36,695 nucleotides of DNA from a virus, in the IMG/VR virus record IMGVR_UViG_3300043959_000048. One strand, given 5' to 3'. A program made the translations under genes and the position numbers. Each line of letters opens with the position of its first letter. Within the stretch, counting starts at the first letter, position 1. Under the pieces are notes generated by a model. The model saw only the letters and a program-made list of their open reading frames with translations. It was not told where the DNA came from and did not search any database. This document shows, in pieces, positions 1 to 36,695 of the stretch.

Positions 1-30
1 CCCGCCCTGTCCGCAATAAGGGTTCCCGGC
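1..30. repeat. attL core (direct repeat cccgccctgtccgcaataagggttcccggc)
   Basis: Identical 30-mer at 36666-36695. The repeat may extend leftwards beyond the window. Confidence 0.85.
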
Positions 31-48
31 AATATACCTGGAACCCTT
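18..48 (+). terminator. Hairpin spanning the att core/phage arm junction (AAGGGTTCC - 13 nt - GGAACCCTT), followed by TAATTAT
   Basis: Perfect 9-bp inverted repeat, 18-26 with 40-48. The left arm belongs to the att core and the right arm is phage DNA. It could rebuild a terminator for the upstream host gene. Confidence 0.3.
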
Positions 49-151
49 TAATTATGCCGTATCACCCATGGCAGTAGGCATCCCGTATAATGCAGACAAC
101 AATAGCACATAGTGCCTAAGAGTGTTGTAAAGTGCTGTAAAGTTGTTACTT

Positions 152-171
152 GTGTGGTGCTTCGTGTGGTG
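152..171 (+). promoter_or_regulatory. Candidate integrase arm-type binding sites (GTGTGGTG x2, 12-bp register), attL arm
   Basis: GTGTGGTG at 152-159 and 164-171. The same octamer pair with the same 12-bp register and orientation occurs at 36581-36588 and 36593-36600. Confidence 0.4.
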
Positions 172-217
172 AAAAACAGCAACGGAAACGCGCCACACTA
201 AGACGGGGGGGCGCATC

Positions 218-1573
218 ATGGGTCGACGCAGATTCGGCAGCATCGTCGCCGTTGGGAAAGACAAGCGTGCATGGATAGAAGCGCGCTACACGCCACCGAC
301 AGCCTTGCGTGACAAGTGGCCGCGAATGCCCAGACGATTCGCCAAACGATTCCCCGAAGGGTGGGAAATCCAAGCCGAGCAATGGCTCAACGATGAGGAG
401 AGACTCATACGTCTCGGGACATGGACGCCGCCGAGCCAGCGACGACACCAGCATCAGGGCGAAACCACGACATTCCACGATTACGCGACGAAATGGATAG
501 AGCGGCGCCGCAAACCCGACGGCAAGCCAGCAAGGGAAACCACCAAGCAGAAATACCGGGAGAACCTGCGAAACCACCTCGACCCGGCATTCGGCAGCAA
601 GCCGATATCCGAGATCTCCTACCACGACATCACCGAATGGTACGACCAGTATCCCATCGGAGCTGACGGCAAGGGAGAAGCGCAACGCGTCCAATGCTAC
701 GTCCTGCTCAAAGCCATCATGAAAACCGCCGCCACCGAGCCACTGGACGACGCAGGCACCACGCTCATAGACAAGTCGCCAGCCACATTCAACATCGCAA
801 AATCCAGGAAACGGCATGTCACGCTCATAGCCGAAATGGGGGAGCTGATCGCCATCAGCAGTGCGATGCCCGACTGGCTGGCGCTCGCCGTCGTATTGGC
901 GGGCACTCTTGGATTGCGCGAGGGCGAGTGCTGCGGATTGCGGCGAAGCGATTTCGAACTGGATGCTACTCCGCCCATGCTGCATGTGCGGCATGCGGTC
1001 AAGCCCATATACGATGCTCATGGTCATCGGTCGTTGATATTGGATGAGCCGAAAACCCCTGGAAGCATGCGCGACATCGTCATACCGGACAGCTTGATCC
1101 CACTGATAATCGACCAGTTCGACCGTTACTCCGGCGAGGGCGATGATGGCATGCTGTTTCCGGGGAGGAAGGGCAATGCCTTGTTTTCGCCGCAGTCTTT
1201 GCGCAATGCCTGGGAGCGGGCTCGAGGCATCGTTCCACGCTTGAGAACCATGAGATTCCATGATCTGCGTGACACGGCGCTGACTCGCTTGGCCGAGTTG
1301 GGTGCTACCGGGGGCGAACTGATGGCGCAAGCCGGGCACACATCGCTGAAGGTCGCATCGGTATATCAGAAAACGTCTGACTCGCATCGTGGCGAGGTGA
1401 TGGCACGATTGGATAGGGCTATTGTCGGTGCGGAGGAGCGTCCTGCGAAAGCTTCGGGAGCATCCGCTTCATTGGTCGATGAGCTGGCGAGACTCGGCGA
1501 AATGCACGGATCCGGTGTATTGGATGATGAGGAGTTCAAATCGGCGAAGAAAAAACTATTAGGGGAGTCCTAG
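218..1573 (+). CDS. int: Tyrosine recombinase (phage integrase) with C-terminal SHOCT-like tail
   Basis: 451 aa. A G-rich SD (7 G, 205-211) precedes the ATG. Catalytic signature is visible: LREGECCGLRRSDF (Arg box), RFHDLRDTALTRL (H-x-x-R) and AGHTSLKVASVYQ (His...Tyr). First gene inside attL. The tail LVDELARLGEMHGSGVLDDEEFKSAKKKLLG looks SHOCT-like. Confidence 0.92.
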   Translation: MGRRRFGSIVAVGKDKRAWIEARYTPPTALRDKWPRMPRRFAKRFPEGWEIQAEQWLNDEERLIRLGTWTPPSQRRHQHQGETTTFHDYATKWIERRRKPDGKPARETTKQKYRENLRNHLDPAFGSKPISEISYHDITEWYDQYPIGADGKGEAQRVQCYVLLKAIMKTAATEPLDDAGTTLIDKSPATFNIAKSRKRHVTLIAEMGELIAISSAMPDWLALAVVLAGTLGLREGECCGLRRSDFELDATPPMLHVRHAVKPIYDAHGHRSLILDEPKTPGSMRDIVIPDSLIPLIIDQFDRYSGEGDDGMLFPGRKGNALFSPQSLRNAWERARGIVPRLRTMRFHDLRDTALTRLAELGATGGELMAQAGHTSLKVASVYQKTSDSHRGEVMARLDRAIVGAEERPAKASGASASLVDELARLGEMHGSGVLDDEEFKSAKKKLLGES

Positions 1574-1605
1574 GGCTGAGTCTCTACACCTGCTAGGCTG
1601 GTCCC

Positions 1606-1845
1606 ATGATCGACGATGACGCCGAGGGGCTGGAGCAGCTGAGGCGAGATAGGCTTGCCGAGGCGGAGCGAGGGTTGCGGAAGCTGGTGCGAGAGGGGTT
1701 GTTGACGCCGGAGACTTACGGCAAGATATGGATGGTGTTGCACACTGAGTCAGCGCGGCTTGTTGAGGCCGAGCAGGTGCGGGGAATGCACAGGATGCGG
1801 AAATCGAATTGTGAAGGTTTTCCTTGGCGGTGTCTATGGGGTTGA
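1606..1845 (+). CDS. Hypothetical small protein (79 aa), uncertain
   Basis: ORF follows int with no clear SD. The first ~55 codons have G/C-ending codon bias. It contains REGLLTPETYGKI, faintly SHOCT-like. Its stop lies inside the TTGACA box of the next promoter. Confidence 0.3.
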   Translation: MIDDDAEGLEQLRRDRLAEAERGLRKLVREGLLTPETYGKIWMVLHTESARLVEAEQVRGMHRMRKSNCEGFPWRCLWG

Positions 1846-1871
1846 CATTCTCCCCCATGCGTGTCTATACT
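1842..1871 (+). promoter_or_regulatory. Near-consensus sigma-A/sigma-70 type promoter of the cargo operon
   Basis: TTGACA (1842-1847), 18 nt, TATACT (1866-1871). The SD AAGGAGA (1888-1894) and ATG 1900 follow. Confidence 0.6.
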
Positions 1872-1878
1872 ATAGACA
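1862..1878. promoter_or_regulatory. Candidate operator: perfect 17-bp palindrome TGTCTATA-c-TATAGACA over the -10 box
   Basis: Read directly from the sequence. An extra TGTCTAT half-site lies at 1831-1837. Confidence 0.5.
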
Positions 1879-1899
1879 TCAGCGATCAAGGAGAACGAC

Positions 1900-2235
1900 A
1901 TGGACGCGATCACCAGCCGGATCGGCAAGTACAGTCCCGACGACGACGATTCGATCATCTACGAGGTCTCGGATGCGCAGGGGATCATCTGCGCGCTCTA
2001 CCTCGACCCCGAGCACCACATGATCGAGAACGTCGAGACCCGTGACGACCGGCTGCATGAGGGATTCGCCACGAGACTCTTCGCCGCCGCCGATGACGAG
2101 ATCGGTGCGTTCCTCGCCCCCGAATTCTGCCGCACCTCGGATGGTCAGGGATGGGCGGATCACATGGAGAACGAGGGGTACAGCGTCATGGATGTGGATA
2201 CCGCAGAGAAAATAGTGTATGGGGAGGATGAGTGA
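1900..2235 (+). CDS. Hypothetical small acidic protein (111 aa), first gene of cargo operon
   Basis: Strong SD AAGGAGA 5 nt upstream of the ATG, directly downstream of the promoter. D/E-rich. I recognise no family. Confidence 0.65.
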   Translation: MDAITSRIGKYSPDDDDSIIYEVSDAQGIICALYLDPEHHMIENVETRDDRLHEGFATRLFAAADDEIGAFLAPEFCRTSDGQGWADHMENEGYSVMDVDTAEKIVYGEDE

Positions 2236-2236
2236 C

Positions 2237-2626
2237 ATGGACATCGCCGAATTGACAAGAGAGCTGGCGCATCGGTCCGACATGGACCTGGACGCGGCAC
2301 GGGAGTTGGCAGATGAATACTTGTCGCAGGCCGAAGCCGTGGATGATCGGAAGATAGACCGATCCGACATCTCCGACGACGATGCGCAGACGGTTTTCAC
2401 CGCGGCAGAAGTCGGTGAGACGCTCGACCCGCAGTCGCCGGCTCTAGGCGAGATCGAGGATATGACCGCCCGCATCGGTGAGCTGACGCATAGGATCGGA
2501 GACATCGCGGACCGTCGCAATGAGCTGATCGTCCGCGCGTATCATCGAGGCACAAGCGTGCCTAGGCTCACATCGGCCAGCGGTCTGAATCGGTCAAGAA
2601 TCTACGCGATCCTCAAAAAAGCATGA
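2237..2626 (+). CDS. Acidic protein with C-terminal helix-turn-helix (about 129 aa); candidate operon autoregulator
   Basis: SD GGGGAGGA at 2221-2228. The ATG at 2237 lies 1 nt after the upstream stop; alternative in-frame ATGs are at 2219 and 2228. The C-terminus RRNELIVRAYHRGTSVPRLTSASGLNRSRIYAILKKA reads as an HTH. Confidence 0.65.
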   Translation: MDIAELTRELAHRSDMDLDAARELADEYLSQAEAVDDRKIDRSDISDDDAQTVFTAAEVGETLDPQSPALGEIEDMTARIGELTHRIGDIADRRNELIVRAYHRGTSVPRLTSASGLNRSRIYAILKKA

Positions 2627-3825
2627 GACGCGGCAAGCCGATCACGCAATACGGGGCGGACGGGAATTTCCTGCGGTCCTTCGACAGTAGGACGGAGGCC
2701 GCGTCATGGCTGAGAGATCATGGTCATCCAAAAGCTAAGGTAGGGGGACTGTCCCGTCTCACCGACGGCATCATCTATGGATTCCGCTGGCGAGATGGAA
2801 GGCATGGCGGGTCAGTGCCGGCCGACGACGGGCATGCGTACAGACGGGTGATTCTGCGTTTCACGGACGGGCACCTCGACGGACGCTTCGACTCGCTGGC
2901 CGATGCGGCCCGCGACCTGGTGGCGCACGGCCACCCAAAAGCGGTGTCCGCGACAATCGGAAACGTCGCACAAGTCCCACTAAGGCGCGCCTTCGGACAC
3001 CAGTGGCGGTATGAGGACGAATGGGACGGGAAAGACCTAGCGACATACGGGCCAAGGAAGCATCGGGCCAGAAACAAAAGCGCGTATGTGCACAAAAAGG
3101 TTGACGCGAGGAAAAAGCCGGTCATAGGCACCGACGCCAAGGGCGTGGTCATGAGCTTCGAGTCGGCTTCCGCTGCGGCAAGACATCTCCGTGGTCACGG
3201 ACATCCAAAAGCGTACTCGCATCGGATCGGCGAAGCGGCGCAAGGGCGCGCGCCCACCGCCTACGGATGGACGTGGCGGTACGGACACGGGGAAAAAGGA
3301 TCATCGACCTCGAATGGCGAGTCAAATTCGCACCTGTGGCTGCAATGGAATCACACGCGGCGCAAATGCCGCTCGCCCAAGGATGCGGCATGGGGGCGTT
3401 ACGGCGGGAGGGGAATCCGCGTGGACCCGACGTGGGAGGACTACATGACCTTCCATGAGTGGAGTCTCGCGCACGGGTACAAGGATGGCCTCACTTTGGA
3501 TCGCAAGGATCGCGACGGCGACTTCACGCCGGACAATGCGATCTGGGTGAAGCCCGGGGAGGGATATACCTACGTCGCGCCCGGTCTGCAAAAAGCAGTG
3601 ATCCAGATCAGCGACGGAGTGGAAGTGAATCGCTATCGGAGCGTCCAGCGGGCCGCCGAATCGCTGATCGCCGCCGGAAGCGGAGCGAAAAGCGGCGACA
3701 GGACCACCACCATGTCCAACATCGTATGCTGTCTCAAGGGGCGCACGAGAAGCGCTTATGGCTTCTACTGGAAATACGTCGCGGAGGACGACATCAAGGC
3801 CGCTGGCGATCCGTCATCACAGTAG
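2623..3825 (+). CDS. Homing-endonuclease-like DNA-binding protein: 4 NUMOD1-like repeats around a His-less HNH_3/AP2-like core (400 aa)
   Basis: ATGA start/stop overlap with the upstream gene. Three repeats carry an invariant HGHPKA and end in G(F/H/W)xWRY (aa 5-57, 74-130, 164-220). A fourth, diverged repeat ends SAYGFYWKY (aa 323-385). The central WGRYGGRGIRVDPTWEDYMTFHEWSLAHGYKDGLTLDRKDRDGDFTPDNAIW resembles the ...LDRIDnnGnYxPxNxxW core of phage HNH_3-type proteins, but the catalytic His position reads LDR. Confidence 0.7.
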   Translation: MRRGKPITQYGADGNFLRSFDSRTEAASWLRDHGHPKAKVGGLSRLTDGIIYGFRWRDGRHGGSVPADDGHAYRRVILRFTDGHLDGRFDSLADAARDLVAHGHPKAVSATIGNVAQVPLRRAFGHQWRYEDEWDGKDLATYGPRKHRARNKSAYVHKKVDARKKPVIGTDAKGVVMSFESASAAARHLRGHGHPKAYSHRIGEAAQGRAPTAYGWTWRYGHGEKGSSTSNGESNSHLWLQWNHTRRKCRSPKDAAWGRYGGRGIRVDPTWEDYMTFHEWSLAHGYKDGLTLDRKDRDGDFTPDNAIWVKPGEGYTYVAPGLQKAVIQISDGVEVNRYRSVQRAAESLIAAGSGAKSGDRTTTMSNIVCCLKGRTRSAYGFYWKYVAEDDIKAAGDPSSQ

Positions 3826-3865
3826 GACCACAGCCTGCATCGACACCACCTCCTACGCGAGAAAA

Positions 3866-3893
3866 GCCCCCACCTCCGCAAGGAGGTGAGGGC
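3866..3893. terminator. Convergent terminator between cargo operon (+) and lysis cassette (-)
   Basis: Arms GCCCCCACCTCC and GGAGGTGAGGGC form a 12-bp stem with one mismatch and loop GCAA. On the minus strand it is followed immediately by UUUUCUC. On the plus strand a T-run (3904-3907) follows after a gap. Confidence 0.6.
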
Positions 3894-3938
3894 GATTCGC
3901 GTGTTTTCAGACTGTCAACTCATGGTTGACGGCTGGAT

Positions 3939-4247
3939 CTATTCGGCGTCCTTAGGTGTGCCGATGTCGAGCAGCGCATCAAGCCACGCGCTGGTAATGC
4001 CCACAGCCTTGAAAGCTGAGTAGGCGACCTGCACACCGCCGATGACCGCGAACACGCAGGTCAGCCATGCGGCCGGATCGGCAGGGATGCCGGCGATGAA
4101 GCCGGTGGCAAGGCCCGCAAGCAGGCTGACTCCGATACTGATAAAGCGAGCGACATTGCCGCTCAGGGCGTGCGTTTTGATGGCCTGCACGATGTAAGGC
4201 ACGAGGATCGCGCTGATAAGCGTGGCGATCAATTGGATAGTGGTCAT
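3939..4247 (-). CDS. Holin (102 aa, 2-3 transmembrane segments)
   Basis: Small hydrophobic protein with a charged C-terminus (GTPKDAE). It lies immediately downstream of the endolysin and is the last gene of the minus-strand operon. Confidence 0.75.
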   Translation of the reverse strand: MTTIQLIATLISAILVPYIVQAIKTHALSGNVARFISIGVSLLAGLATGFIAGIPADPAAWLTCVFAVIGGVQVAYSAFKAVGITSAWLDALLDIGTPKDAE

Positions 4248-4256
4248 AGTGTGTCC

Positions 4257-5219
4257 TTAGATTCGTATGGTTTGCCCGGGGTGGATGAGGTTGGGGTTTT
4301 TGATGTTGTTTTTGGCTGCCAAGGCCTGCCAGGTGGTGTGGTGCGTGGCGGCGATACCGCTCAAAGTGTCGCCTTTGCGCACCGTATACGTGGCTGCTGC
4401 TGCGGGTTTCGCTGCCGGGGCCGGAGCAGGGGCTGCGACGTCGATGAGGATCGATTGTCCTGCGTTGATGCGGTTAGCGTCGCGAATGCCGTTAAGCTGT
4501 TGCAGGCGCTGCCAGGTGGTGCCGAAACGATTGGCGATGCCGCTCAAGGTGTCGCCCGCCTTGATAACGTAGGAGCGGACGCCGGCAGCAGGCTTAACGG
4601 ATGCGGGAGCAGGCGCGGGGGCAACGGCAGGCTTGGCTGGGGTTGGTGCACCCCATTTGACCTGCCCGTAGTCGGCTAGGGATGTGCGCACGAAATCACA
4701 GTCGCCCCCACCCAGACGCTGGCCATTGGCATACTGATACATCCGGATGCCTTGAGCGACCTTGCCGCCGCTCCATGCATAGGTCTGCCACGCCGCATAA
4801 CCGCGTCCCATGGCGTGCGCGCACGGCCCGTAGCCCGCATACACGCCAGTCAGCGCCTTGCCGAGCACGCTGGCGGCTCCGTCAAGGTATGCGTCGAGCA
4901 ACGCGTATTCGCCCGGACGCATGTCATAATCCACTGCGAAATACACAAGAGACAGCGGCAGGCCCAGAGCAAGGGTCGCATTACGGGCGTCCGTGGCGTC
5001 GTTGATACCGGCTTGGTGTCCGCCTTTAACGGTCGTGCCGGTGGTCTCGTACACGAGCGTGAGCGAGAGTCCTGCGGCTTTGATCTGCGCGATCTCACCG
5101 CGGGACAGTGCTTTCGACCCTCTGCCGGTCAGGTAACGGATTACGCCCACGCGTCCCGCGGCTTTGACCTGCGCGAGATTGGGACGCGCCCACGCGTAAT
5201 CGATAAGTTCAGTAGCCAT
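4257..5219 (-). CDS. Endolysin: N-terminal glycoside-hydrolase-like (DUF1906/Rv2525c-like, GH25-like) domain plus 2 LysM repeats
   Basis: SD AAGGAGG. Two LysM motifs are present: YVIKAGDTLSGIANRFGTTWQRLQQLNGI...INAGQSILI and YTVRKGDTLSGIAATHHTTWQALAAKNNI...IHPGQTIRI. They are joined by Ala/Pro linkers. The N-terminal pattern is VIRYL...AAGLSLTLVYE...VYFAVDYD. Confidence 0.88.
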   Translation of the reverse strand: MATELIDYAWARPNLAQVKAAGRVGVIRYLTGRGSKALSRGEIAQIKAAGLSLTLVYETTGTTVKGGHQAGINDATDARNATLALGLPLSLVYFAVDYDMRPGEYALLDAYLDGAASVLGKALTGVYAGYGPCAHAMGRGYAAWQTYAWSGGKVAQGIRMYQYANGQRLGGGDCDFVRTSLADYGQVKWGAPTPAKPAVAPAPAPASVKPAAGVRSYVIKAGDTLSGIANRFGTTWQRLQQLNGIRDANRINAGQSILIDVAAPAPAPAAKPAAAATYTVRKGDTLSGIAATHHTTWQALAAKNNIKNPNLIHPGQTIRI

Positions 5220-5254
5220 TGATGGCCTCCTTGATAGTTATTTCGGGTATGAAA

Positions 5255-5278
5255 AAACCGCCCCAGGTGGAGCGGTTT
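5255..5278 (-). terminator. Intrinsic terminator-like hairpin between XhlA-like gene and endolysin
   Basis: On the minus strand AAACCGC...GCGGUUU forms a stem of 7 bp plus 2 further pairs, followed by UUUC (six U in total). Confidence 0.5.
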
Positions 5279-5301
5279 AACGGCTGGTAGGTCGAGGGCG
5301 G

Positions 5302-5610
5302 TTAGTGCATGATGAGTGGTATGGCCCATTCGAGCAGTCCCACGATCAGGCCGACGACGGTGCCGGCCGCGCCGGCTGCCTTCCACACCGAGTCCTTGAG
5401 ATCCTGCACGGTGCTTTTCAAATCGGCCATATCATCGTCCGTGTCGGCTTTGAGGTCGTCGATACGCCTGTTGACGTGTTTGATGTCGCTCTCGTGCAGC
5501 TCCTGCGACTCCAGGCTGTCGAGCCGGTGGTCGATGTCGTTGAAGCGCTGGGTCATGGTTTCTTTCAGGTCCTTGAGCTGGGCTGAGATCACATCAGGCG
5601 AATCAGGCAT
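5302..5610 (-). CDS. XhlA-like lysis-associated protein (coiled-coil N-terminus, single C-terminal TM)
   Basis: 102 aa. SD AAGGAG. The heptad-like charged N-terminal part is followed by the hydrophobic segment AAGAAGTVVGLIVGLLEWAIPLIM. Positioned just upstream of the lysin/holin pair. Confidence 0.6.
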   Translation of the reverse strand: MPDSPDVISAQLKDLKETMTQRFNDIDHRLDSLESQELHESDIKHVNRRIDDLKADTDDDMADLKSTVQDLKDSVWKAAGAAGTVVGLIVGLLEWAIPLIMH

Positions 5611-5671
5611 GTGAGAATACTCCTTGCGGTGACGATGGCGACGATGGAATCCTCAGACACAATGCACCCAC

Positions 5672-5929
5672 TCAGGATCGTTGGTATAGGGCGGTGCACA
5701 ATACGTCGCCAGTGCGCACCGCGTCGGAGTATACGTTGTCCGACGGGCTTGTCGGGACACCAATAGATGTGAATCCAATCCATCCCATTGATACGGAGGA
5801 GATCCAGCAGATGAATGAGTATCCGGGCACGGTTGGCGCGGTGACCGGCGCTTGGTTGGAATTGGAGAGACTCACGACTGTGCTCTTGGCTATGATCGGT
5901 CTGTCGTGCAGTATTGAGGTTCGTGTCAT
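5672..5929 (-). CDS. Hypothetical protein (85 aa)
   Basis: TAAGGAGcaaccc-ATG: a strong SD 6 nt before the ATG, directly after the fibre gene stop. No recognisable motif. Confidence 0.5.
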   Translation of the reverse strand: MTRTSILHDRPIIAKSTVVSLSNSNQAPVTAPTVPGYSFICWISSVSMGWIGFTSIGVPTSPSDNVYSDAVRTGDVLCTALYQRS

Positions 5930-5939
5930 GGGTTGCTCC

Positions 5940-6833
5940 TTATTGTCCGTCGTCGTAGACGAGGCCGATCTGCGGGCCGGTGATGTAGCAGGGCGTGGAT
6001 GGGCTGGTGAAATCGTTGAGTGCGCCGGTCGTGTAATACGTTGGTGTGCGGATGTCGATGGTGCCGTCCGCGCGCACGCTCAGCCCGTTGCCGGGTTTTA
6101 CGGTGCCTAATACGGTGGCGGTGGCGGCTTTGGCTTGCGCGGCCGCGTTGGCTGCATCAGCCGCAGCGGTGGCGTCACTGGCTGCGCTCTGCGCCTGAGT
6201 GGTAGCTGCGGTAGCGTTGCTGGTTGCGTCTTGGGCTGCGGATGCTGCGGCATTGGCGGTGCCGGCAGCCGTGTTGGCTGCATCCCTCGCGGTATTGGCT
6301 TGAGTGGCTGCCGTGTTGGCTTGCGTAGCTGCGATGGTGGCGGATGATGCGGCCGTGTTGGCGTTGCTGGCAGCTTCGTTGGCTTGCGTGGTCGCGGTGC
6401 CGATCGCTGCGATGGCTTGTTTGAATTCGGCCAGATCATCAGGCACCTCGCCGGTGGCTTGCAATACGCTTGGCTCGACTAACGCTTCGAAATTGCGGCT
6501 GTCGATGATCATGCCGTTGCGGCTGAGCTCCACGCCAAACGTCACCGCGGCAGTGGCCAGTGCCTGGCGTGGAATGGGTGTGGAGAATGTGAGCGTGTCC
6601 GCGCCTGTCACGGGGCTCATGGTCACGTAGCCGCCCGATGAGCCGGACAGGTCACGATTCCATAATAATCGTGCGCTGATGCCAGTATCGGTCACGGGCA
6701 CGCCATCATCGCTTACGCGCACCCGGAACGAGCGCCCGCTCACGTCCCCGGCGTTTAATCGTACGGGTGGGATCCAGTCCGATGCCGTGTCGAGGCTGAT
6801 GTCAATGGCCCGGTAGTCGTCTAAAACGCTCAT
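5940..6833 (-). CDS. Baseplate upper protein-like tail fibre / receptor-binding protein (BppU-like N-domain, coiled-coil shaft, small C-terminal head)
   Basis: SD GAGGAGAG. The N-terminus RLNAGDVSGRSFRVRVSDDGVPVTDTGISARLLW fits the BppU N-terminal pattern. Aa 149-239 form 13 consecutive Ala/Thr/Asn heptads. It sits downstream of Tal. Confidence 0.75.
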   Translation of the reverse strand: MSVLDDYRAIDISLDTASDWIPPVRLNAGDVSGRSFRVRVSDDGVPVTDTGISARLLWNRDLSGSSGGYVTMSPVTGADTLTFSTPIPRQALATAAVTFGVELSRNGMIIDSRNFEALVEPSVLQATGEVPDDLAEFKQAIAAIGTATTQANEAASNANTAASSATIAATQANTAATQANTARDAANTAAGTANAAASAAQDATSNATAATTQAQSAASDATAAADAANAAAQAKAATATVLGTVKPGNGLSVRADGTIDIRTPTYYTTGALNDFTSPSTPCYITGPQIGLVYDDGQ

Positions 6834-33740: not shown

Positions 33741-33989
33741 TCACTGGGCTCCCGTTGCAGCGGGGGCCTTCTTCACGTCTGTGGTGGATTGCTGGCGGTG
33801 GCTTTTCAGGTAGTTGAGGACGTCCTCCTTGGCGTAGAGGATCATCTTGCCGACCTTCGAATATTTAGGGCCGATGCCCGCTGACCGCCAGTAGCCGAGC
33901 GTCCCTATCGGTATCCCGGTGAGGTCGGATACCGCTTTCGGCGAATTTATCGGCTTGAGCCGTTCGTCGAGTTCCGTGAATGGGATCAT
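33741..33989 (-). CDS. Cro-like / AlpA-type HTH protein, first early lytic gene
   Basis: PKAVSDLTGIPIGTLGYWRSAGIGPKYSKVGKMILYAKEDVLNYL is an HTH_17-type motif. It is divergent from the repressor gene across a 118-bp switch region. Confidence 0.7.
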   Translation of the reverse strand: MIPFTELDERLKPINSPKAVSDLTGIPIGTLGYWRSAGIGPKYSKVGKMILYAKEDVLNYLKSHRQQSTTDVKKAPAATGAQ

Positions 33990-34071: not shown

Positions 34072-34100
34072 TTGATTCGGGCATGTCGTGTTGTTATAAT
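34072..34100 (+). promoter_or_regulatory. Repressor promoter giving a leaderless transcript
   Basis: TTGATT (34072-34077), 17 nt, TATAAT (34095-34100), with TGT directly upstream (extended -10). The ATG at 34108 starts 8 nt after the -10 box and no SD lies between them. Confidence 0.6.
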
Positions 34101-34107
34101 TGAAAAC

Positions 34108-34911
34108 ATGAGAATTCAGAACGCAATAGGCGAATACGTGCATGAGTGTCGGACAACATATAATCTGACGCTCGATCAGATCGCCACCGAATCACGCAGA
34201 TACGGCAGCAATTGGAACTCCGGCTCCATAAAGAAGCTCGAGGGTGGGCAAGTCGCCGCCACGCTCGAGAATATGCTCATAATCGCCAGGACGATCAACT
34301 CGCTCACCAATGGCGACATATCATTAGCTGACATGTTTTCGGACGATGATTCCGTGGATCTGGGAGATCGCATAGTGGAAAGCGACGAGATACGACGAAC
34401 GCTCAACGGATCTTCCGTGCTGTTCGAGGTGTCAGCGAACAGCGATGTGAGATCACGGGCCACCGAGGTTTTCATGTCATCCATGCCCGAGATAATGCAG
34501 CAGGTCTCCACCGCGATTATCGGATCCCTTCCTGACGATGATTGGGGGAGAGCCGATGCCCATGAGCCGAGCCTTGCTGAGCATCGTGCCGCGAAAAAGC
34601 TGGGCATTACTCCGGTTGCCGTGGCTGCGCTCTGTTTAACGCGTTACGGACGGTTCCTCGATGACGAGGCGGCTCGCAGAGCAGGCGATGGCGCGTCGCC
34701 GCAGAAACGAGGTCGCGAGACACGTGGCATCGTCGAAGAACTCGACCTGCTGCTCGAGGAAATGATGAATTCCGAATCCCATGCCTCTGCCCCTGGCGTG
34801 CTTTCCGAGGAGGAGCGCAAGCGCCGCGCCATTGCCGACCTGAACCTCGCGGCGAATGACAATCCGGATAAGGAGGCGGAAAGCGAATACTTTGCCGACG
34901 AGGGAGCCTGA
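34108..34911 (+). CDS. XRE-family (Cro/CI-type HTH) prophage repressor, ImmR-like, no S24 peptidase domain
   Basis: Start taken at ATG 34108 (MRIQNAIGEYVHECRTTYNLTLDQIATESRRYG...IKKLEGGQ); the ORF-track TTG start at 34057 lies inside the promoter. The long C-terminal region has no LexA-like Ser/Lys motifs that I can see. Confidence 0.8.
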   Translation: MRIQNAIGEYVHECRTTYNLTLDQIATESRRYGSNWNSGSIKKLEGGQVAATLENMLIIARTINSLTNGDISLADMFSDDDSVDLGDRIVESDEIRRTLNGSSVLFEVSANSDVRSRATEVFMSSMPEIMQQVSTAIIGSLPDDDWGRADAHEPSLAEHRAAKKLGITPVAVAALCLTRYGRFLDDEAARRAGDGASPQKRGRETRGIVEELDLLLEEMMNSESHASAPGVLSEEERKRRAIADLNLAANDNPDKEAESEYFADEGA

Positions 34912-34921
34912 CTTCGCGCGA

Positions 34922-35329
34922 ATGAGATATGGCGACATGCGGCGCTACGCCGATTCTCTCGGCGTCACCGTATGCAGCGAACATCTCTCCAGCGGCAGGC
35001 AGGGATTATATTCCGCCAAGCTTGACATGATCGTCATTGACCGCGCAATCACCTATACCGCCAAGCGCTGCACTCTCATGCATGAGCTTGTCCACTGGAG
35101 GCACGGAGACAGGATATGCGATTCAGCCATCGGGGCGCGAATCGAGAATCGTGCGAGACGAGAGACGGCTATGCTGCTCGTTGCGCCTGCTGACTATGCG
35201 CTGGCCGAGCAGGTCTACGAGGGGGATGTTTTCAGGATTGCCGCCGAGTTGGATGTGACGCGGCAGGTCGTCGAAGATTATCAGTCCATGGTGCTATCGC
35301 GATTGCGCGAAACACGGGAAGCGATATAG
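34922..35329 (+). CDS. ImmA/IrrE-family zinc metalloprotease (anti-repressor protease)
   Basis: HEXXH in CTLMHELVHWRHGD. It is located immediately downstream of the XRE repressor. The start is uncertain (ATG 34922 or 34937). Confidence 0.8.
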   Translation: MRYGDMRRYADSLGVTVCSEHLSSGRQGLYSAKLDMIVIDRAITYTAKRCTLMHELVHWRHGDRICDSAIGARIENRARRETAMLLVAPADYALAEQVYEGDVFRIAAELDVTRQVVEDYQSMVLSRLRETREAI

Positions 35330-35379: not shown

Positions 35380-36573
35380 ATGACCAATCCAATAATCCCA
35401 CAGCAACCAGCGCCGCAAGGCCCCGAAGAAATCCAGCCCCATTACTCCGCCTACCCACAACAAGGACAGCAGCAACATGCGACTCCGCCCACGCCAATAC
35501 CACCAATAGACCCGAATCAGCCCCACCGCCGCGATCTCCGCCAGACAAACAAAGGTACAAGCGGACTCGCCATTACCGCCCTAGTAATCGGAATTATCAG
35601 TATCGTGCTTTCCTGGGTTCCGATAATCAACAATTTCGCTGCTTTCCTAGCTTTGGTCGGCATAATATTCGGAATCATAGGAATCACCAGAACCGGTCAC
35701 AGAAGCAAGAAAAAAGGTCGCGGGATAGCAATAGCTGGAACCGTGCTGTCTGTAATAGCCATCATCGTCACACTTATCACCCAATCTGCCTATGGGAAAG
35801 CCTTAGACAAGGTGACAAACACTGGTTCGACGCCAAAAGCAAGCTCAGCTACAATCAAGAAGGACAACCTTGCTGCATGTAAGACTCTTCTGGGCGATGA
35901 TATGAAAATCGTCACAGGCATCCCGGATCTGATCACCGGGATAGGGGACAATGCCACAACAAAGCAACAGGATCAACTCGAGAAAACGCATCTGAAAATC
36001 GAGGATGCGCGCAAACAAGCTGAAAGCGGTCTCGCAGGCCATCTCGCCTCTCTCGATACCCCGTTTAAACAAGCATATGACGTCATGCACGGCGGCGGCG
36101 GATCGATCGATATGGATACATCGCATGTGGAAAACGACATAACCAACGTCATGAATGACTGTGCTGATGCAGGATATAAAATCGCCGATACGAACACGGA
36201 CGAATCCTCCGACTCCTCTGTGGACGAGAAGCCTCTGGCAAGCGTTTCAGGTGGCAAATATGCCGGCAAAGATAACACAGGATTCGGCAGTGGAACATTC
36301 ACGGTTCGCAATGACAGCGACAAGCCGCTGAAATCGGTGTCGCTGACTGTTTCGGAACTGGACGCATCGGGCAATATCCTGCAGGAGACGTATCCGCAGC
36401 TCGATAGCGATCTGCAGCCAGGGCAAAGCGCGAATCTCGAATACCTGCTCAGCCCCGACGATCTCACGAAAACGCGTTCCGTGCAGGTCACGAAGCTCTC
36501 GTGGATGCTCGACGATAACGGGGACGGATTCCAGGAGGTAAGCGTTTCCTCCGACCCGGTGCAAGTGAAATGA
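35380..36573 (+). CDS. Membrane protein: Pro/Gln-rich N-terminus, DUF4190-like TM hairpin plus third TM, large extracytoplasmic domain ending in an Ig-like (DUF4352-like) module; candidate superinfection-exclusion / lysogenic-conversion factor
   Basis: SD GGGGAG. TM segments are GLAITALVIGIISIVLSWVPII, FAAFLALVGIIFGIIGI and IAIAGTVLSVIAIIVTLI. The C-terminus reads FTVRNDSDKPLKSVSLTVSELDASGNILQ. It is the last gene before attR, co-oriented with the repressor, and visibly more A/T-rich than the structural genes. Confidence 0.75.
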   Translation: MTNPIIPQQPAPQGPEEIQPHYSAYPQQGQQQHATPPTPIPPIDPNQPHRRDLRQTNKGTSGLAITALVIGIISIVLSWVPIINNFAAFLALVGIIFGIIGITRTGHRSKKKGRGIAIAGTVLSVIAIIVTLITQSAYGKALDKVTNTGSTPKASSATIKKDNLAACKTLLGDDMKIVTGIPDLITGIGDNATTKQQDQLEKTHLKIEDARKQAESGLAGHLASLDTPFKQAYDVMHGGGGSIDMDTSHVENDITNVMNDCADAGYKIADTNTDESSDSSVDEKPLASVSGGKYAGKDNTGFGSGTFTVRNDSDKPLKSVSLTVSELDASGNILQETYPQLDSDLQPGQSANLEYLLSPDDLTKTRSVQVTKLSWMLDDNGDGFQEVSVSSDPVQVK

Positions 36574-36665: not shown

Positions 36666-36695
36666 CCCGCCCTGTCCGCAATAAGGGTTCCCGGC
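36666..36695. repeat. attR core (direct repeat)
   Basis: Identical to 1-30. Lies directly after the last prophage gene and an arm region with repeated GTGTGGTG motifs. Confidence 0.85.

What the first reader, a model, noticed from the sequence alone, without database searches (positions are those of the whole stretch)
1842..3825. Integrase-proximal 3-gene cargo operon with near-consensus promoter and a palindromic operator: candidate lysogen-expressed system of unknown function
Three tightly packed ORFs lie between int and the lysis cassette and are transcribed opposite to all lytic genes. The first stop (2233-2235) is 1 nt from the ATG at 2237, and the second junction is an ATGA overlap at 2623-2626.

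They are preceded by one of the two best promoter matches I found in the window:
- TTGACA (1842-1847), 18 nt, TATACT (1866-1871).
- SD AAGGAGA (1888-1894).

A perfect 17-bp palindrome, TGTCTATA-c-TATAGACA (1862-1878), covers the -10 box and the predicted start site. Another TGTCTAT half-site lies at 1831-1837. The operon therefore looks repressor-gated, and gene 2 has a C-terminal HTH that could be the autoregulator.

The block ends at the convergent terminator at 3866-3893. This position and architecture are typical of prophage morons such as defence, exclusion or TA-like modules.

I could not place the content in any characterised defence family: two small, strongly acidic proteins plus a 400-aa multi-repeat DNA-binding protein.
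Basis: partly seen in the sequence, partly recalled or inferred. Interest (0 to 1): 0.72.

Follow-up and report, generated by a model that had tools for sequence, protein, structure and literature searches.

The report
Self-regulated mini-acetyltransferase operon in temperate actinophage
Next to the integrase of a complete temperate phage genome sits a real three-gene operon with its own promoter and operator: a tiny acetyltransferase-fold protein, a DNA-binding regulator and a homing-endonuclease-like protein. The same layout recurs in other phages of actinobacteria and resembles a counter-defence operon, but its function is untested.

Summary
The described sequence features are all present at the stated coordinates.

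What the three genes are:
- **Gene 1** (1900-2235) is a 111-aa acidic protein with a minimal GNAT acetyltransferase fold.
- **Gene 2** (2237-2626) has an acidic N-terminal half and a basic C-terminal helix-turn-helix (HTH).
- **Gene 3** (2623-3825) has four NUMOD1-type DNA-binding repeats around a degenerate HNH-like core.

The window is a circularly assembled whole phage genome, not a demonstrably integrated prophage.

In 9 of 16 distinct loci from Actinomycetota phages, prophages and plasmids, a gene-1 relative is followed directly by a ~115-130-aa HTH protein (PHROG 2311). It is preceded by palindromes over the -10 box and start site. The palindrome sequence changes with the HTH recognition helix, which supports autoregulation.

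Gordonia phage Finkle gp31-gp30-gp29 shows the same three-gene layout in the same genome slot.

No known defence family matches. Solitary gene-1 relatives argue against a toxin-antitoxin pair. The logic is closest to anti-CRISPR/Aca operons, and AcrVA5 is a precedent for a small GNAT-family effector.

The target, the timing of expression and the direction (defence or counter-defence) remain untested.

The parts
1831..1847 (+). Imperfect palindrome TGTCTATggggTTGACA (candidate operator O2). It overlaps the -35 box.
   Evidence: (I7/D6). It lies 31 bp upstream of O1. It is not conserved in L008.
1842..1871 (+). Sigma-70-type promoter: TTGACA, 18 nt, TATACT.
   Evidence: 11/12. It is the only 11/12 match in the window; 0.125 are expected per genome. 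The GGGTTG of the -35 region and the -10 box are conserved in L008/L009.
1862..1878 (+). Perfect palindrome TGTCTATA-c-TATAGACA (candidate operator O1). It covers the -10 box and the predicted start site.
   Evidence: unique in the window, none in 100 shuffles. The 23-nt block GTGTCTATAnTATAGACATCAGC is 22/23 identical in L008/L009, while the upstream 120 nt overall are 56% identical and the gene-1 coding sequence 71%. Analogous palindromes lie upstream of most gene-1 relatives.
1888..1894 (+). Shine-Dalgarno sequence AAGGAGA of gene 1.
   Evidence: AAGGAG is conserved in L008/L009.
1900..2235 (+). Gene 1: 111-aa acidic (pI 4.07) protein with a minimal GNAT fold.
   Evidence: (pLDDT 93.9).
2237..2626 (+). 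Gene 2: 129 aa. Residues 1-70 are acidic (pI 4.05). Residues 71-129 are basic (pI 10.4) with a weak HTH_28/HTH_23-type motif. It is the candidate autorepressor.
   Evidence: It has no homologue apart from its own sequence. It has the same position and build as the PHROG 2311 HTH partners of gene-1 relatives, but homology is shown only over the HTH (hhalign E = 0.023).
2623..3825 (+). Gene 3: 400-aa basic (pI 9.8) protein with four NUMOD1-type repeats (three N-terminal, one C-terminal) around an HNH-like core (residues ~228-313). The core lacks the catalytic His (LDRKDRDGDFTPDN). Its start overlaps gene 2 (ATGA).
   Evidence: NUMOD1 28.2 bits against a 22.8 cut-off; PHROG 3377, E = 2.6e-23; D1 repeat.
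3866..3893 (-). GC-rich hairpin between the converging operons. Its T-run is on the minus strand, so it is the terminator of the holin/endolysin transcript. It is a possible weak stop for the plus-strand operon.
   Evidence: (I1).
1606..1845 (+). 79-aa ORF between int and the promoter. Its status is uncertain and it has no family match.
   Evidence: GC3 is 0.70, similar to neighbouring genes. L008 has no counterpart.
218..1573 (+). Tyrosine integrase with a C-terminal SHOCT domain (context).

Best explanation
This is a self-contained, autoregulated accessory ('moron') operon of a temperate phage that infects an actinobacterium.

Proposed mechanism:
1. Host RNA polymerase starts at a near-consensus promoter (about position 1878).
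2. The first product is a 111-aa acidic minimal GNAT-fold protein that keeps the acetyl-CoA-binding core. It is the effector. It most likely acetylates a basic target protein, or binds one in an acetyl-CoA-dependent way.
3. The second product binds the palindromes over the -10 and -35 boxes through its basic C-terminal HTH and shuts the promoter down. Expression is therefore a self-limited burst or a low steady level.
4. The third product is a DNA-binding protein derived from a homing endonuclease. Its nuclease core looks degenerate. It occupies a slot that in related phages holds other large DNA-binding proteins (MucR-like).

The operating logic is that of anti-CRISPR/Aca operons. The most likely role is counter-defence or host takeover.

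Shown: the operon anatomy, the gene-1 fold, the gene-3 family, and the recurrence of the layout elsewhere. Inferred: binding by gene 2, enzymatic activity, the target, and the timing of expression.
For: **Anatomy.**

**Gene 1 is GNAT-like.**
- A profile search found 34 relatives of about 100-120 aa.
- 24 of the 35 aligned family sequences (gene 1, P0002 and relatives) hit Pfam GNAT models.
- A family profile hits RimI in the PDB at E = 3.6e-6.
- The AlphaFold2 model has pLDDT 93.9.
- All top Foldseek PDB hits are GNATs.
- The top viral hit is annotated as an acetyltransferase domain, with TM 0.80.
- Motif A (R-x-x-G-x-A) is kept across the family.

**A recurring module.**
- In 9 of 16 distinct loci a PHROG 2311 HTH gene follows the gene-1 relative directly.
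- Perfect TGTAGA-N4-TCTACA sites occur only upstream of these genes. In three loci they sit at -38 and -15 from a leaderless ATG.
- All four loci whose HTH helix 3 reads DRM(T/A)(V/I)R share that operator. Loci with other helices have other palindromes.

**Same genome slot and same three-gene layout.** Seen in Gordonia phage Finkle gp31-gp30-gp29, and in L163, where the pair is followed by a zinc-ribbon/HTH protein and converges on an endolysin.

**Counter-defence-like neighbourhoods.**
- Gene-1 relatives sit next to pairs of a small acidic 'YDIDAI' protein and an Aca2/YdiL-like HTH.
- One relative lies near an Acb2/Tad1-hairpin gene.

**Precedents.** AcrVA5 is a small GNAT-family anti-CRISPR (10.1101/2021.11.16.468554). 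Aca proteins repress acr promoters through inverted repeats (PMC6765145, PMC9410906).
Against: - No functional test exists for any step.
- Gene 1 itself does not reach any Pfam GNAT threshold. Its motif A reads L-H-E-G-F-A; the usual Arg is replaced by Leu.
- Gene 2 has no homologue apart from itself. It matches the PHROG 2311 family only over 25 HTH residues. It matches no Aca family in Pfam.
- L008/L009 carry the identical operator but no gene 2.
- In L169 only the right half of the palindrome plus TCAGC is conserved. Part of the conservation may therefore be a promoter or start-site element rather than an operator.
- The operon lies on the same strand as int and the putative repressor. That fits expression in the lysogen and a host-protecting role equally well.
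- The 'AcrVA2-like' label in L152 was not reproduced at E < 0.01.
Confidence: 0.45

Rival explanations
1. Defence or superinfection-exclusion module expressed from the prophage. The lysogen expresses the operon, and the GNAT-fold protein, alone or with the gene-3 DNA-binding or nuclease protein, blocks incoming phages.
For: - The operon is on the same strand as int, the putative repressor, the ImmA-like peptidase and a DUF4190 membrane protein.
- It is insulated from late transcription by the convergent hairpin.
- From my own knowledge: this slot in actinophages often holds lysogen-expressed defence genes.
- Gene 3 gives a weak PADLOC 'HEase' hit, E = 5e-4.
Against: - Genes 1 and 2 match no PADLOC defence family.
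- Gene-1 relatives also occur as solitary opposite-strand genes in phages. In L169, no integrase or repressor was seen in the stretch examined.
- Their neighbours are small acidic proteins with Aca2-like regulators, and in one case an Acb2/Tad1-like gene.
- The gene-3 nuclease core lacks the catalytic His.
Confidence: 0.25
2. Type II toxin-antitoxin or addiction module. Gene 1 is a GNAT toxin, and gene 2 is an HTH antitoxin that also represses the operon.
For: - It is a tightly coupled two-gene unit with palindromes over the promoter, found on phages, prophages and a Nocardia plasmid.
- From my own knowledge: GNAT is a known toxin fold (TacT, AtaT, KacT).
Against: - Gene 1 is only 111 aa and strongly acidic.
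- By inference from the alignments and the model, it lacks the N-terminal helices and C-terminal strands of full GNATs.
- The gene order is effector first, and there is no RHH/DUF1778 partner.
- Relatives occur alone, with no adjacent partner gene (D_HF5_3, L169), or with unrelated partners (L008/L009, L162).
Confidence: 0.08
3. Not one system. Gene 3 is a free-standing, selfish homing-endonuclease-type gene that landed behind an unrelated two-gene module. The three genes share a transcript but not a function.
For: - The gene-3 core has relatives in 370 phage records. There are up to three places per genome in Staphylococcus phages of about 141-143 kb. They are annotated as HNH endonuclease or hypothetical protein.
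- Its closest homologue, in Bifidobacterium crudilactis, follows a different HTH gene.
- Most gene-1/HTH pairs have no gene-3 relative.
Against: - A large DNA-binding protein follows the HTH gene in several independent loci: the window, L147, L155, L163 and Finkle. In the window and in L147 it overlaps the HTH gene by 4 nt.
- That recurrence suggests the slot has a role.
- The HNH-like core looks degenerate.
Confidence: 0.3
4. Regulators of the phage's own development. Genes 2 and 3 are transcription factors for the lysis-lysogeny or excision decision, and gene 1 is a modulator.
For: - Two of the three products are DNA-binding.
- The operon is close to int.
- One gene-1 relative is fused to an excisionase-type HTH_17 domain.
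Against: - The phage already has an HTH_17 Xis/Cro-like gene (33741-33989) and a separate putative immunity region with a different promoter and no similar palindrome.
- The module moves between unrelated phages and plasmids.
Confidence: 0.1

Closest known systems
Anti-CRISPR/Aca operons (for example acrIF8-aca2; PMC6765145, PMC9410906, PMC8633003)
   Same: A strong promoter with inverted repeats over the -35 and -10 boxes. Small acidic effector gene(s) come first and an HTH repressor gene lies directly downstream. They are carried on phages and plasmids, and the effector is exchangeable. For example, Finkle gp31 replaces the GNAT-fold gene upstream of the same HTH family.
   Different: Gene 2 matches no described Aca family. 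No anti-CRISPR or other inhibitory activity is shown. Here the effector family is conserved together with the HTH family across 9 loci. A third large DNA-binding gene is attached.
AcrVA5, a GNAT-family acetyltransferase anti-CRISPR (10.1101/2021.11.16.468554)
   Same: A small GNAT-family protein encoded by a mobile element and used as an effector.
   Different: No sequence match. It was not among the top 50 Foldseek PDB hits. The target and activity of gene 1 are unknown.
PanZ/YhhK (PDB 2k5t, 4crz), a small GNAT-fold acetyl-CoA sensor that binds PanD
   Same: It is the best structural neighbour in the PDB (TM about 0.56). From my own knowledge: it is a small GNAT-fold protein that acts by acetyl-CoA-dependent protein binding rather than by catalysis.
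   Different: 16% identity. It is a cellular metabolic regulator, not a mobile-element gene.
GNAT/RHH type II toxin-antitoxin systems (TacAT, AtaRT, KacAT; from my own knowledge)
   Same: A GNAT-fold protein paired with a DNA-binding autorepressor and palindromic operators.
   Different: Those toxins are full-length, about 160-180 aa, and bind tRNA. The antitoxin comes first and is RHH/DUF1778. Gene 1 is 111 aa, has pI 4.07, comes first, and its relatives can occur alone.
Free-standing NUMOD1/HNH homing endonucleases of phages (I-HmuI type; PHROG 3377/374)
   Same: Gene 3 has NUMOD1 repeats and the PHROG 'HNH endonuclease' core.
   Different: Arg replaces the catalytic His (DR instead of DH/HH). 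There is no Pfam HNH hit. Gene 3 is translationally coupled to a regulator gene.
Gordonia phage Finkle gp31-gp30-gp29 (ON456347; PMC9476905)
   Same: It has the same three-gene layout (small acidic protein, about 120-aa HTH, about 380-aa DNA-binding protein). It is on the reverse strand, converges on the membrane-protein genes that follow the forward-transcribed structural arm, and lies in the central region that also holds the integrase.
   Different: gp31 is not GNAT-like. gp30 is PHROG 2311, which gene 2 is not detectably. gp29 is MucR-like, not NUMOD/HNH-like. The functions are also unknown.

Membership tests
GNAT (GCN5-related N-acetyltransferase) superfamily - gene 1 | The GNAT alpha/beta fold | tested here: met
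   The AlphaFold2 model has pLDDT 93.9. The top 40 Foldseek PDB hits are all GNATs, with TM 0.5-0.56. The top BFVD hit is an acetyltransferase domain with TM 0.80. The fold is truncated: the matches cover beta2-beta4, alpha3, beta5 and alpha4.
GNAT superfamily - gene 1 | Motif A, the pyrophosphate-binding loop Q/R-x-x-G-x-G/A | tested here: inconclusive
   The family consensus R-G-E-G-L-A fits. G55 is nearly invariant and A57 is invariant. Gene 1 itself reads L-H-E-G-F-A, whereas P0002 reads R-H-E-G-L-A.
GNAT superfamily - gene 1 | A match to a curated GNAT profile above threshold | tested here: not met
   Gene 1 has no Pfam GNAT hit at E <= 0.1. The link is indirect, through relatives (24 of 35 hit, best E = 6e-8) and through a family profile against RimI (E = 3.6e-6).
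GNAT superfamily - gene 1 | Acetyl-CoA binding and acyl transfer | not testable with these tools
   Needs biochemistry.
acr-aca operon | Small effector gene(s) directly upstream of an HTH gene in one operon on a mobile element | tested here: met
   The layout recurs in relatives.
acr-aca operon | Inverted repeats overlapping the promoter | tested here: met
   O1 covers the -10 box and start site, and O2 covers the -35 box. Relatives have analogous sites.
acr-aca operon | The HTH protein belongs to a described Aca family | tested here: not met
   Gene 2 gives only weak HTH_28/HTH_23 hits and no Aca2_YdiL hit. An Aca2_YdiL hit above cut-off exists only for a neighbour of a gene-1 relative in L152 (24.5 against 23.8 bits).
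acr-aca operon | The effector inhibits CRISPR-Cas or another defence, and the HTH protein represses the promoter | not testable with these tools
   Needs genetics and EMSA.
GNAT/RHH type II toxin-antitoxin | An RHH/DUF1778 antitoxin gene upstream of a full-length GNAT toxin | tested here: not met
   The order is reversed and there is no RHH/DUF1778 hit. Gene 1 is 111 aa with pI 4.07.
GNAT/RHH type II toxin-antitoxin | Obligate pairing of toxin and antitoxin | tested here: not met
   Gene-1 relatives occur alone in Caudovirus D_HF5_3 and L169, and with other partners in L008/L009 and L162.
HNH/NUMOD homing endonuclease - gene 3 | NUMOD1-type DNA-binding modules | tested here: met
   Pfam NUMOD1 scores 28.2 bits against a 22.8 cut-off. 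Four repeats are visible in the sequence and as DNA repeat D1.
HNH/NUMOD homing endonuclease - gene 3 | Membership of the phage 'HNH endonuclease' core family | tested here: met
   PHROG 3377 E = 2.6e-23 and PHROG 374 E = 8.7e-19. There are 370 phage records with relatives.
HNH/NUMOD homing endonuclease - gene 3 | Catalytic His-Me finger residues (H...N...H/N) | tested here: not met
   The sequence reads LDRKDRDGDFTPDN, with Arg where HNH_3 has His. The distal E-Q-x-x-N segment seen in P0007 is absent. There is no Pfam HNH hit. The alignment to HNH_3 was made by eye.
Known anti-phage defence systems (PADLOC 2.0) | A match of any component to a defence-system profile | tested here: not met
   Genes 1 and 2 have no hit. 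Gene 3 has only a weak 'HEase' hit, E = 5e-4.

The most novel reading that the evidence does not exclude
The minimal GNAT proteins (the gene-1 family) with their PHROG 2311-type HTH partners would be a new family of enzymatic counter-defence modules. It would be widespread in Actinomycetota phages and plasmids. In this reading, a roughly 110-aa acetyltransferase inactivates a host immune protein. It is controlled by a new Aca-like repressor family whose operators have diverged with the recognition helix. It is often coupled to a large DNA-binding protein (MucR-like or NUMOD/HNH-like).
Probability: 0.25. Interest if true: 0.75.

Novelty: new variant of a known kind. Interest (0 to 1): 0.5.

Why it matters
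- Phage counter-defence and prophage-encoded accessory genes are poorly known for Actinomycetota, including gut and dairy bifidobacteria.
- From my own knowledge: enzymatic effectors are rare among known anti-defence proteins.
- This locus gives a concrete, testable module: a 111-aa GNAT-fold effector, a candidate repressor, and a defined 17-bp operator.
- It also gives a comparative handle for finding more cargo genes by association: a conserved HTH partner family and operators that co-vary with it across about 16 loci.
- If the module turns out to be only a regulated gene of unknown role, it remains an ordinary phage accessory region.

Tried and rejected
- **Near-identical DNA.** Megablast of 1-6000 against 50,697 phage records found no match.
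- **Operator as a search pattern.**
  - The 21-base form found nothing in viral or genome collections.
  - The 16-base form gave 120+ metagenome and 17 viral hits. Apart from the already known L009 contig, all were chance matches in unrelated, mostly low-GC DNA.
- **Sequence searches of the PDB.** Nothing for gene 3, and nothing for the two-sequence gene-1 profile (A2). Gene 2 gave only two insignificant matches (E >= 0.12).
- **Homology of gene 2 to the PHROG 2311 partners.** BLAST, hmmsearch and hhalign detect only the 25-residue HTH. I therefore treat them as analogous, not homologous.
- **Main immunity repressor as the operator binder.** The immunity intergenic region has no related palindrome, and none exists elsewhere in the window.
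- **A divergent promoter inside the palindrome.** Rejected by reading the minus strand: the spacing is only 9 nt.
- **A structured RNA.** No Rfam match reached significance (the only one, E = 0.5, lies far below its gathering score). The palindrome also lies upstream of the predicted start site.
- **The search for related loci with family alignments.** It failed for lack of a conserved stretch. I used a hand-made degenerate pattern instead.
- **First AlphaFold2 run.** With only two sequences the model was poor (pLDDT 57), so I did not use it.
- **The 418-aa protein upstream of the L153 pair.** It looks like a recombinase by eye but has no Pfam hit, so I did not count it as an integrase.


Full report
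**1. Observation**

Reading 1-4500 and listing ORFs confirms the coordinates:
- -35 TTGACA at 1842-1847, an 18-nt spacer, and -10 TATACT at 1866-1871 (11/12).
- Shine-Dalgarno AAGGAGA at 1888-1894.
- Gene 1 at 1900-2235, gene 2 at 2237-2626, gene 3 at 2623-3825.
- One base between the gene-1 stop and the gene-2 ATG, which is preceded by GGAGGA, and an ATGA overlap at 2623-2626.

The 11/12 promoter match is the only one in the window. Simulated genomes give 0.125 on average.

The palindrome TGTCTATAcTATAGACA (1862-1878) is unique even with three mismatches, and none appears in 100 shuffles. The upstream 'half-site' is part of a second, imperfect palindrome, TGTCTATggggTTGACA (1831-1847). It lies over the -35 box, 31 bp away.

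Four corrections are needed:
- The hairpin at 3866-3893 is scored on the minus strand, so it ends the holin/endolysin transcript.
- A called 79-aa ORF (1606-1845) lies between int and the promoter.
- The HTH of gene 2 has only weak profile support.
- The window carries a 30-bp terminal direct repeat, and contig L002 spans the junction. It is therefore a circularly assembled, complete phage genome.

The terminase places the phage among actinophages. It is 72% identical to a human faecal phage and 50% identical to Propionibacterium freudenreichii phages.

The plus-strand block runs across the junction in this order:
- a putative repressor (34108-34911);
- an ImmA/M78 peptidase;
- a DUF4190 membrane protein;
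- the junction region, where attP presumably lies;
- int, then ORF79;
- genes 1-3.

**2. What the genes are**

*Gene 1.* It had only one close relative (P0002, 71-72% identity). A two-sequence profile searched exhaustively found 34 relatives of about 100-120 aa.
- 24 of the 35 aligned family sequences hit Pfam GNAT models, best E = 6e-8.
- The family profile hits RimI and other GNATs in the PDB, best E = 3.6e-6.
- With the 35-sequence alignment, AlphaFold2 gives pLDDT 93.9.
- All leading Foldseek PDB matches are GNATs. PanZ/YhhK is first, with TM about 0.56.
- The best viral match is an 'acetyltransferase domain' protein with TM 0.80.

The conserved part is the acetyl-CoA-binding core: beta strands, motif A (R-x-x-G-x-A), and an H-A-P...T-x-E-G...F-A-E-x-V-G-G segment. 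By inference from the alignments and the model, the N-terminal helices and last strands of full GNATs are missing. Gene 1 is strongly acidic, with pI 4.07.

*Gene 2.* It has no homologue apart from its own sequence. Residues 1-70 are acidic (pI 4.05). Residues 71-129 are basic (pI 10.4) and carry the weak HTH.

*Gene 3.* It has NUMOD1 above the Pfam cut-off and a core matching PHROG 3377/374 'HNH endonuclease', E = 2.6e-23. There are four repeats of the type F-x-S-x-x-x-A-A-x-x-L...G-H-P-K-A...Y-G-W-x-W-R-Y.

The core reads LDRKDRDGDFTPDN. By eye it aligns to HNH_3 with Arg in place of the catalytic His, and there is no Pfam HNH hit. Relatives of the core occur in 370 phage records, with up to three places per genome in Staphylococcus phages of about 141-143 kb. 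The closest full relative is a Bifidobacterium crudilactis hypothetical protein, 36% identical.

PADLOC, NCBIfam and Rfam add nothing.

**3. Comparative evidence**

I fetched loci through exact-protein look-ups, a degenerate DNA pattern for the N-[IV]-E-[VT]-R-x-D-R-x-x-E-G-x-A motif, and tblastn against phage records. This gave 16 distinct loci with a gene-1 relative, all from Actinomycetota or their phages where an organism is named.

*A conserved partner.* In nine loci (L151, L153, L154, L155, L157/L166, L160, L161, L163, L164) the next gene, overlapping or a few bases away, encodes a 113-132-aa protein of one family (hmmsearch E = 1e-20 to 1e-54). It has an acidic N-terminal half (A-W-L-G...T-D-D-Q...P-D-P-D-D) and a C-terminal HTH (G-[LIV]-D-R-x-T-[VI]-R-x-x-L-G-K). 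This family is PHROG 2311, 'HTH DNA binding protein'. Gene 2 has the same position, size and charge layout. It aligns to that family only over the HTH (hhalign E = 0.023). I therefore call it analogous.

*Conserved operators.* Upstream of the gene-1 relatives there are palindromes in almost every locus.
- Perfect TGTAGA-N4-TCTACA sites occur only there within L151, L153, L154 and L157.
- In three loci they lie at -38 and -15 from the ATG. The second site then contains a TAGAGT-type -10 box and abuts the start codon, which indicates leaderless mRNA.
- These four loci share the helix-3 sequence DRM(T/A)(V/I)R.
- Loci with other helix-3 sequences carry other palindromes:

| Locus | HTH helix 3 | Palindrome type |
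|---|---|---|
| L155 | LHRKTIR | TGTACA type |
| L160 | VQRAKTLR | TGTACA type |
| L161 | LSRITVR | TGGTATAG-type palindrome |
| L163 | LARDTVR | TGTAGAATTCTATACA |
| window | LNRSRIY | TGTCTATA-N-TATAGACA |

This co-variation is the best available evidence that the downstream HTH protein binds the operator.

*The window's own operator.* Between the window and L008/L009, the 23-nt block GTGTCTATAnTATAGACATCAGC is 22/23 identical. The gene-1 coding DNA is 71% identical and the upstream 120 nt overall are 56% identical.

**4. The slot and the third gene**

Gordonia phage Finkle is a cultured temperate singleton (PMC9476905). Its reverse-strand trio converges on membrane-protein genes gp27/gp28, in the central genome region that also holds integrase gp45:
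- gp31, a 127-aa acidic protein that is not GNAT-like;
- gp30, a PHROG 2311 family member (E = 6e-36);
- gp29, a 382-aa protein with ROS/MucR and HTH domains.

Other loci show the same pattern:
- L163 has the GNAT/HTH pair, then a 226-aa zinc-ribbon/HTH protein, converging on a VanY/PG-binding endolysin.
- L155 has the pair, then an HA-domain/HTH protein and a ROS/MucR protein.
- B. crudilactis (L147) has an acidic 79-aa protein, then a 135-aa XRE-type HTH, then the gene-3 homologue overlapping it by 4 nt, then a ROS/MucR protein.

So 'small acidic protein, HTH, large DNA-binding protein' is a recurring layout. The homologous families in each position are exchangeable.

**5. Associations that bear on function**

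- In L008/L009 the gene-1 homologue follows an integrase and has its own copy of the promoter. It is followed, behind a second copy of the promoter, by small acidic ORFs and an XRE-type HTH.
- That HTH is homologous to the L147 HTH (45% identity) and to a 140-aa protein in L152. The L152 protein passes the Pfam Aca2/YdiL cut-off, 24.5 against 23.8 bits.
- Each of these HTH genes is preceded by a small acidic protein with a 'YD(I/V)DA(I/V)' motif. BLAST links the L009 and L147 members. The L152 protein is grouped by motif only.
- L162/L165 have a 154-aa member of that acidic family directly after the gene-1 relative.
- In L167 a gene-1-like domain is fused to an HTH_17 domain. It converges on a lysis cassette that also holds an Acb2/Tad1-hairpin gene.
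- In Caudovirus D_HF5_3 and L169 the gene-1 relative is a solitary opposite-strand gene at a module boundary.

**6. Interpretation**

The anatomy and the family-level evidence support an autoregulated accessory operon whose effector is a minimal GNAT-fold protein.

The TA reading is weakened by four points: the size and charge of gene 1, the gene order, the exchange of partners, and the solitary copies.

The defence reading has positional support only. The counter-defence (acr-aca-like) reading is supported by:
- the operating logic;
- the acidic cargo genes next to Aca2-like regulators;
- the AcrVA5 precedent (10.1101/2021.11.16.468554; PMC6765145; PMC9410906).

It still fails the one membership feature that could be tested: gene 2 is in no described Aca family. 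I therefore say the operon works like an acr-aca operon without filing it as one.

**7. Unexplained**

- L008/L009 keep the window's operator but lack gene 2.
- In L169, and in the second promoter copy of L008/L009, mainly the right half plus TCAGC (AGACATCAG) is conserved.

Part of the conservation may therefore be a promoter or start-site element, or the binder may be a factor shared by these phages or their hosts.

**8. Verdict**

This is a real and well-delimited operon. Two of its three genes can now be placed in families. It shows a recurring but undescribed pairing of a minimal GNAT-fold protein with an HTH protein, and operators that co-vary with the HTH. Its function is untested. It is a new variant of a known kind (regulated phage accessory or anti-defence-type operons) and is of moderate interest.

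Noticed in passing
window 1-30 and 36666-36695: A 30-bp terminal direct repeat. Contig L002 runs from the DUF4190 gene across the junction into int. The window is a circularly assembled complete phage genome of about 36,665 bp, and attP presumably lies in the roughly 310-bp gap between 36573 and 218.
   Followed up: yes
window 34072-34110: TTGATT, 17 nt, TATAAT (10/12) ends 7 nt before an in-frame ATG at 34108 of the putative repressor ORF. This suggests a leaderless repressor mRNA and a start 17 codons downstream of the longest ORF. The protein has no Pfam hit.
   Followed up: partly
window 34856-35329 and 35380-36573: An ImmA/IrrE-type M78 metallopeptidase gene overlaps the end of the putative repressor gene. 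It is followed by a 397-aa DUF4190 membrane protein just before the junction. These are a likely induction protease and a likely lysogenic-conversion or exclusion gene.
   Followed up: partly
window 1606-1845: A 79-aa ORF between int and the promoter is called as a gene in every contig that carries it. It ends inside the -35 box, has no family match, and has no counterpart in L008.
   Followed up: partly
L008 3650-3760 and L009 500-600: A second, degenerate copy of the whole promoter element (GACACGCCCGAAAC...GTTGTATTTT...AGACATCAG) precedes the next small acidic gene. The promoter therefore seems to travel as a cassette.
   Followed up: partly
L147 5193-5250: A perfect 12-nt-arm palindrome AAGCGGTGGTAAtTTACCACCGCTT lies directly before a TGCTATACTtATAGGCA element. 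Both are upstream of the acidic 79-aa gene in B. crudilactis. It is either the terminator of the resolvase gene or an operator of the Aca2-like HTH.
   Followed up: no
L152 4252-5385 and L167 2703-4235: TnpB/IS605 OrfB-type genes (Cas12f1-like_TNB) lie within a few kb of gene-1 relatives in two unrelated loci.
   Followed up: no
L053 and L117 (metagenome hits of the palindrome pattern): These unrelated contigs carry 2 and 5 copies of TGTCTATANTATAGACA at regular spacing (about 54-110 bp), so they hold some repeat array.
   Followed up: no
window 1879-2520, minus strand: A 213-aa antisense ORF covers gene 1 and part of gene 2. Its GC3 (0.67) is lower than that of gene 1 (0.80), so it is probably spurious.
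   Followed up: partly
protein P0039 (199 aa, low-GC organism): It contains two tandem gene-1-like domains, so the minimal GNAT unit may work as a dimer.
   Followed up: no
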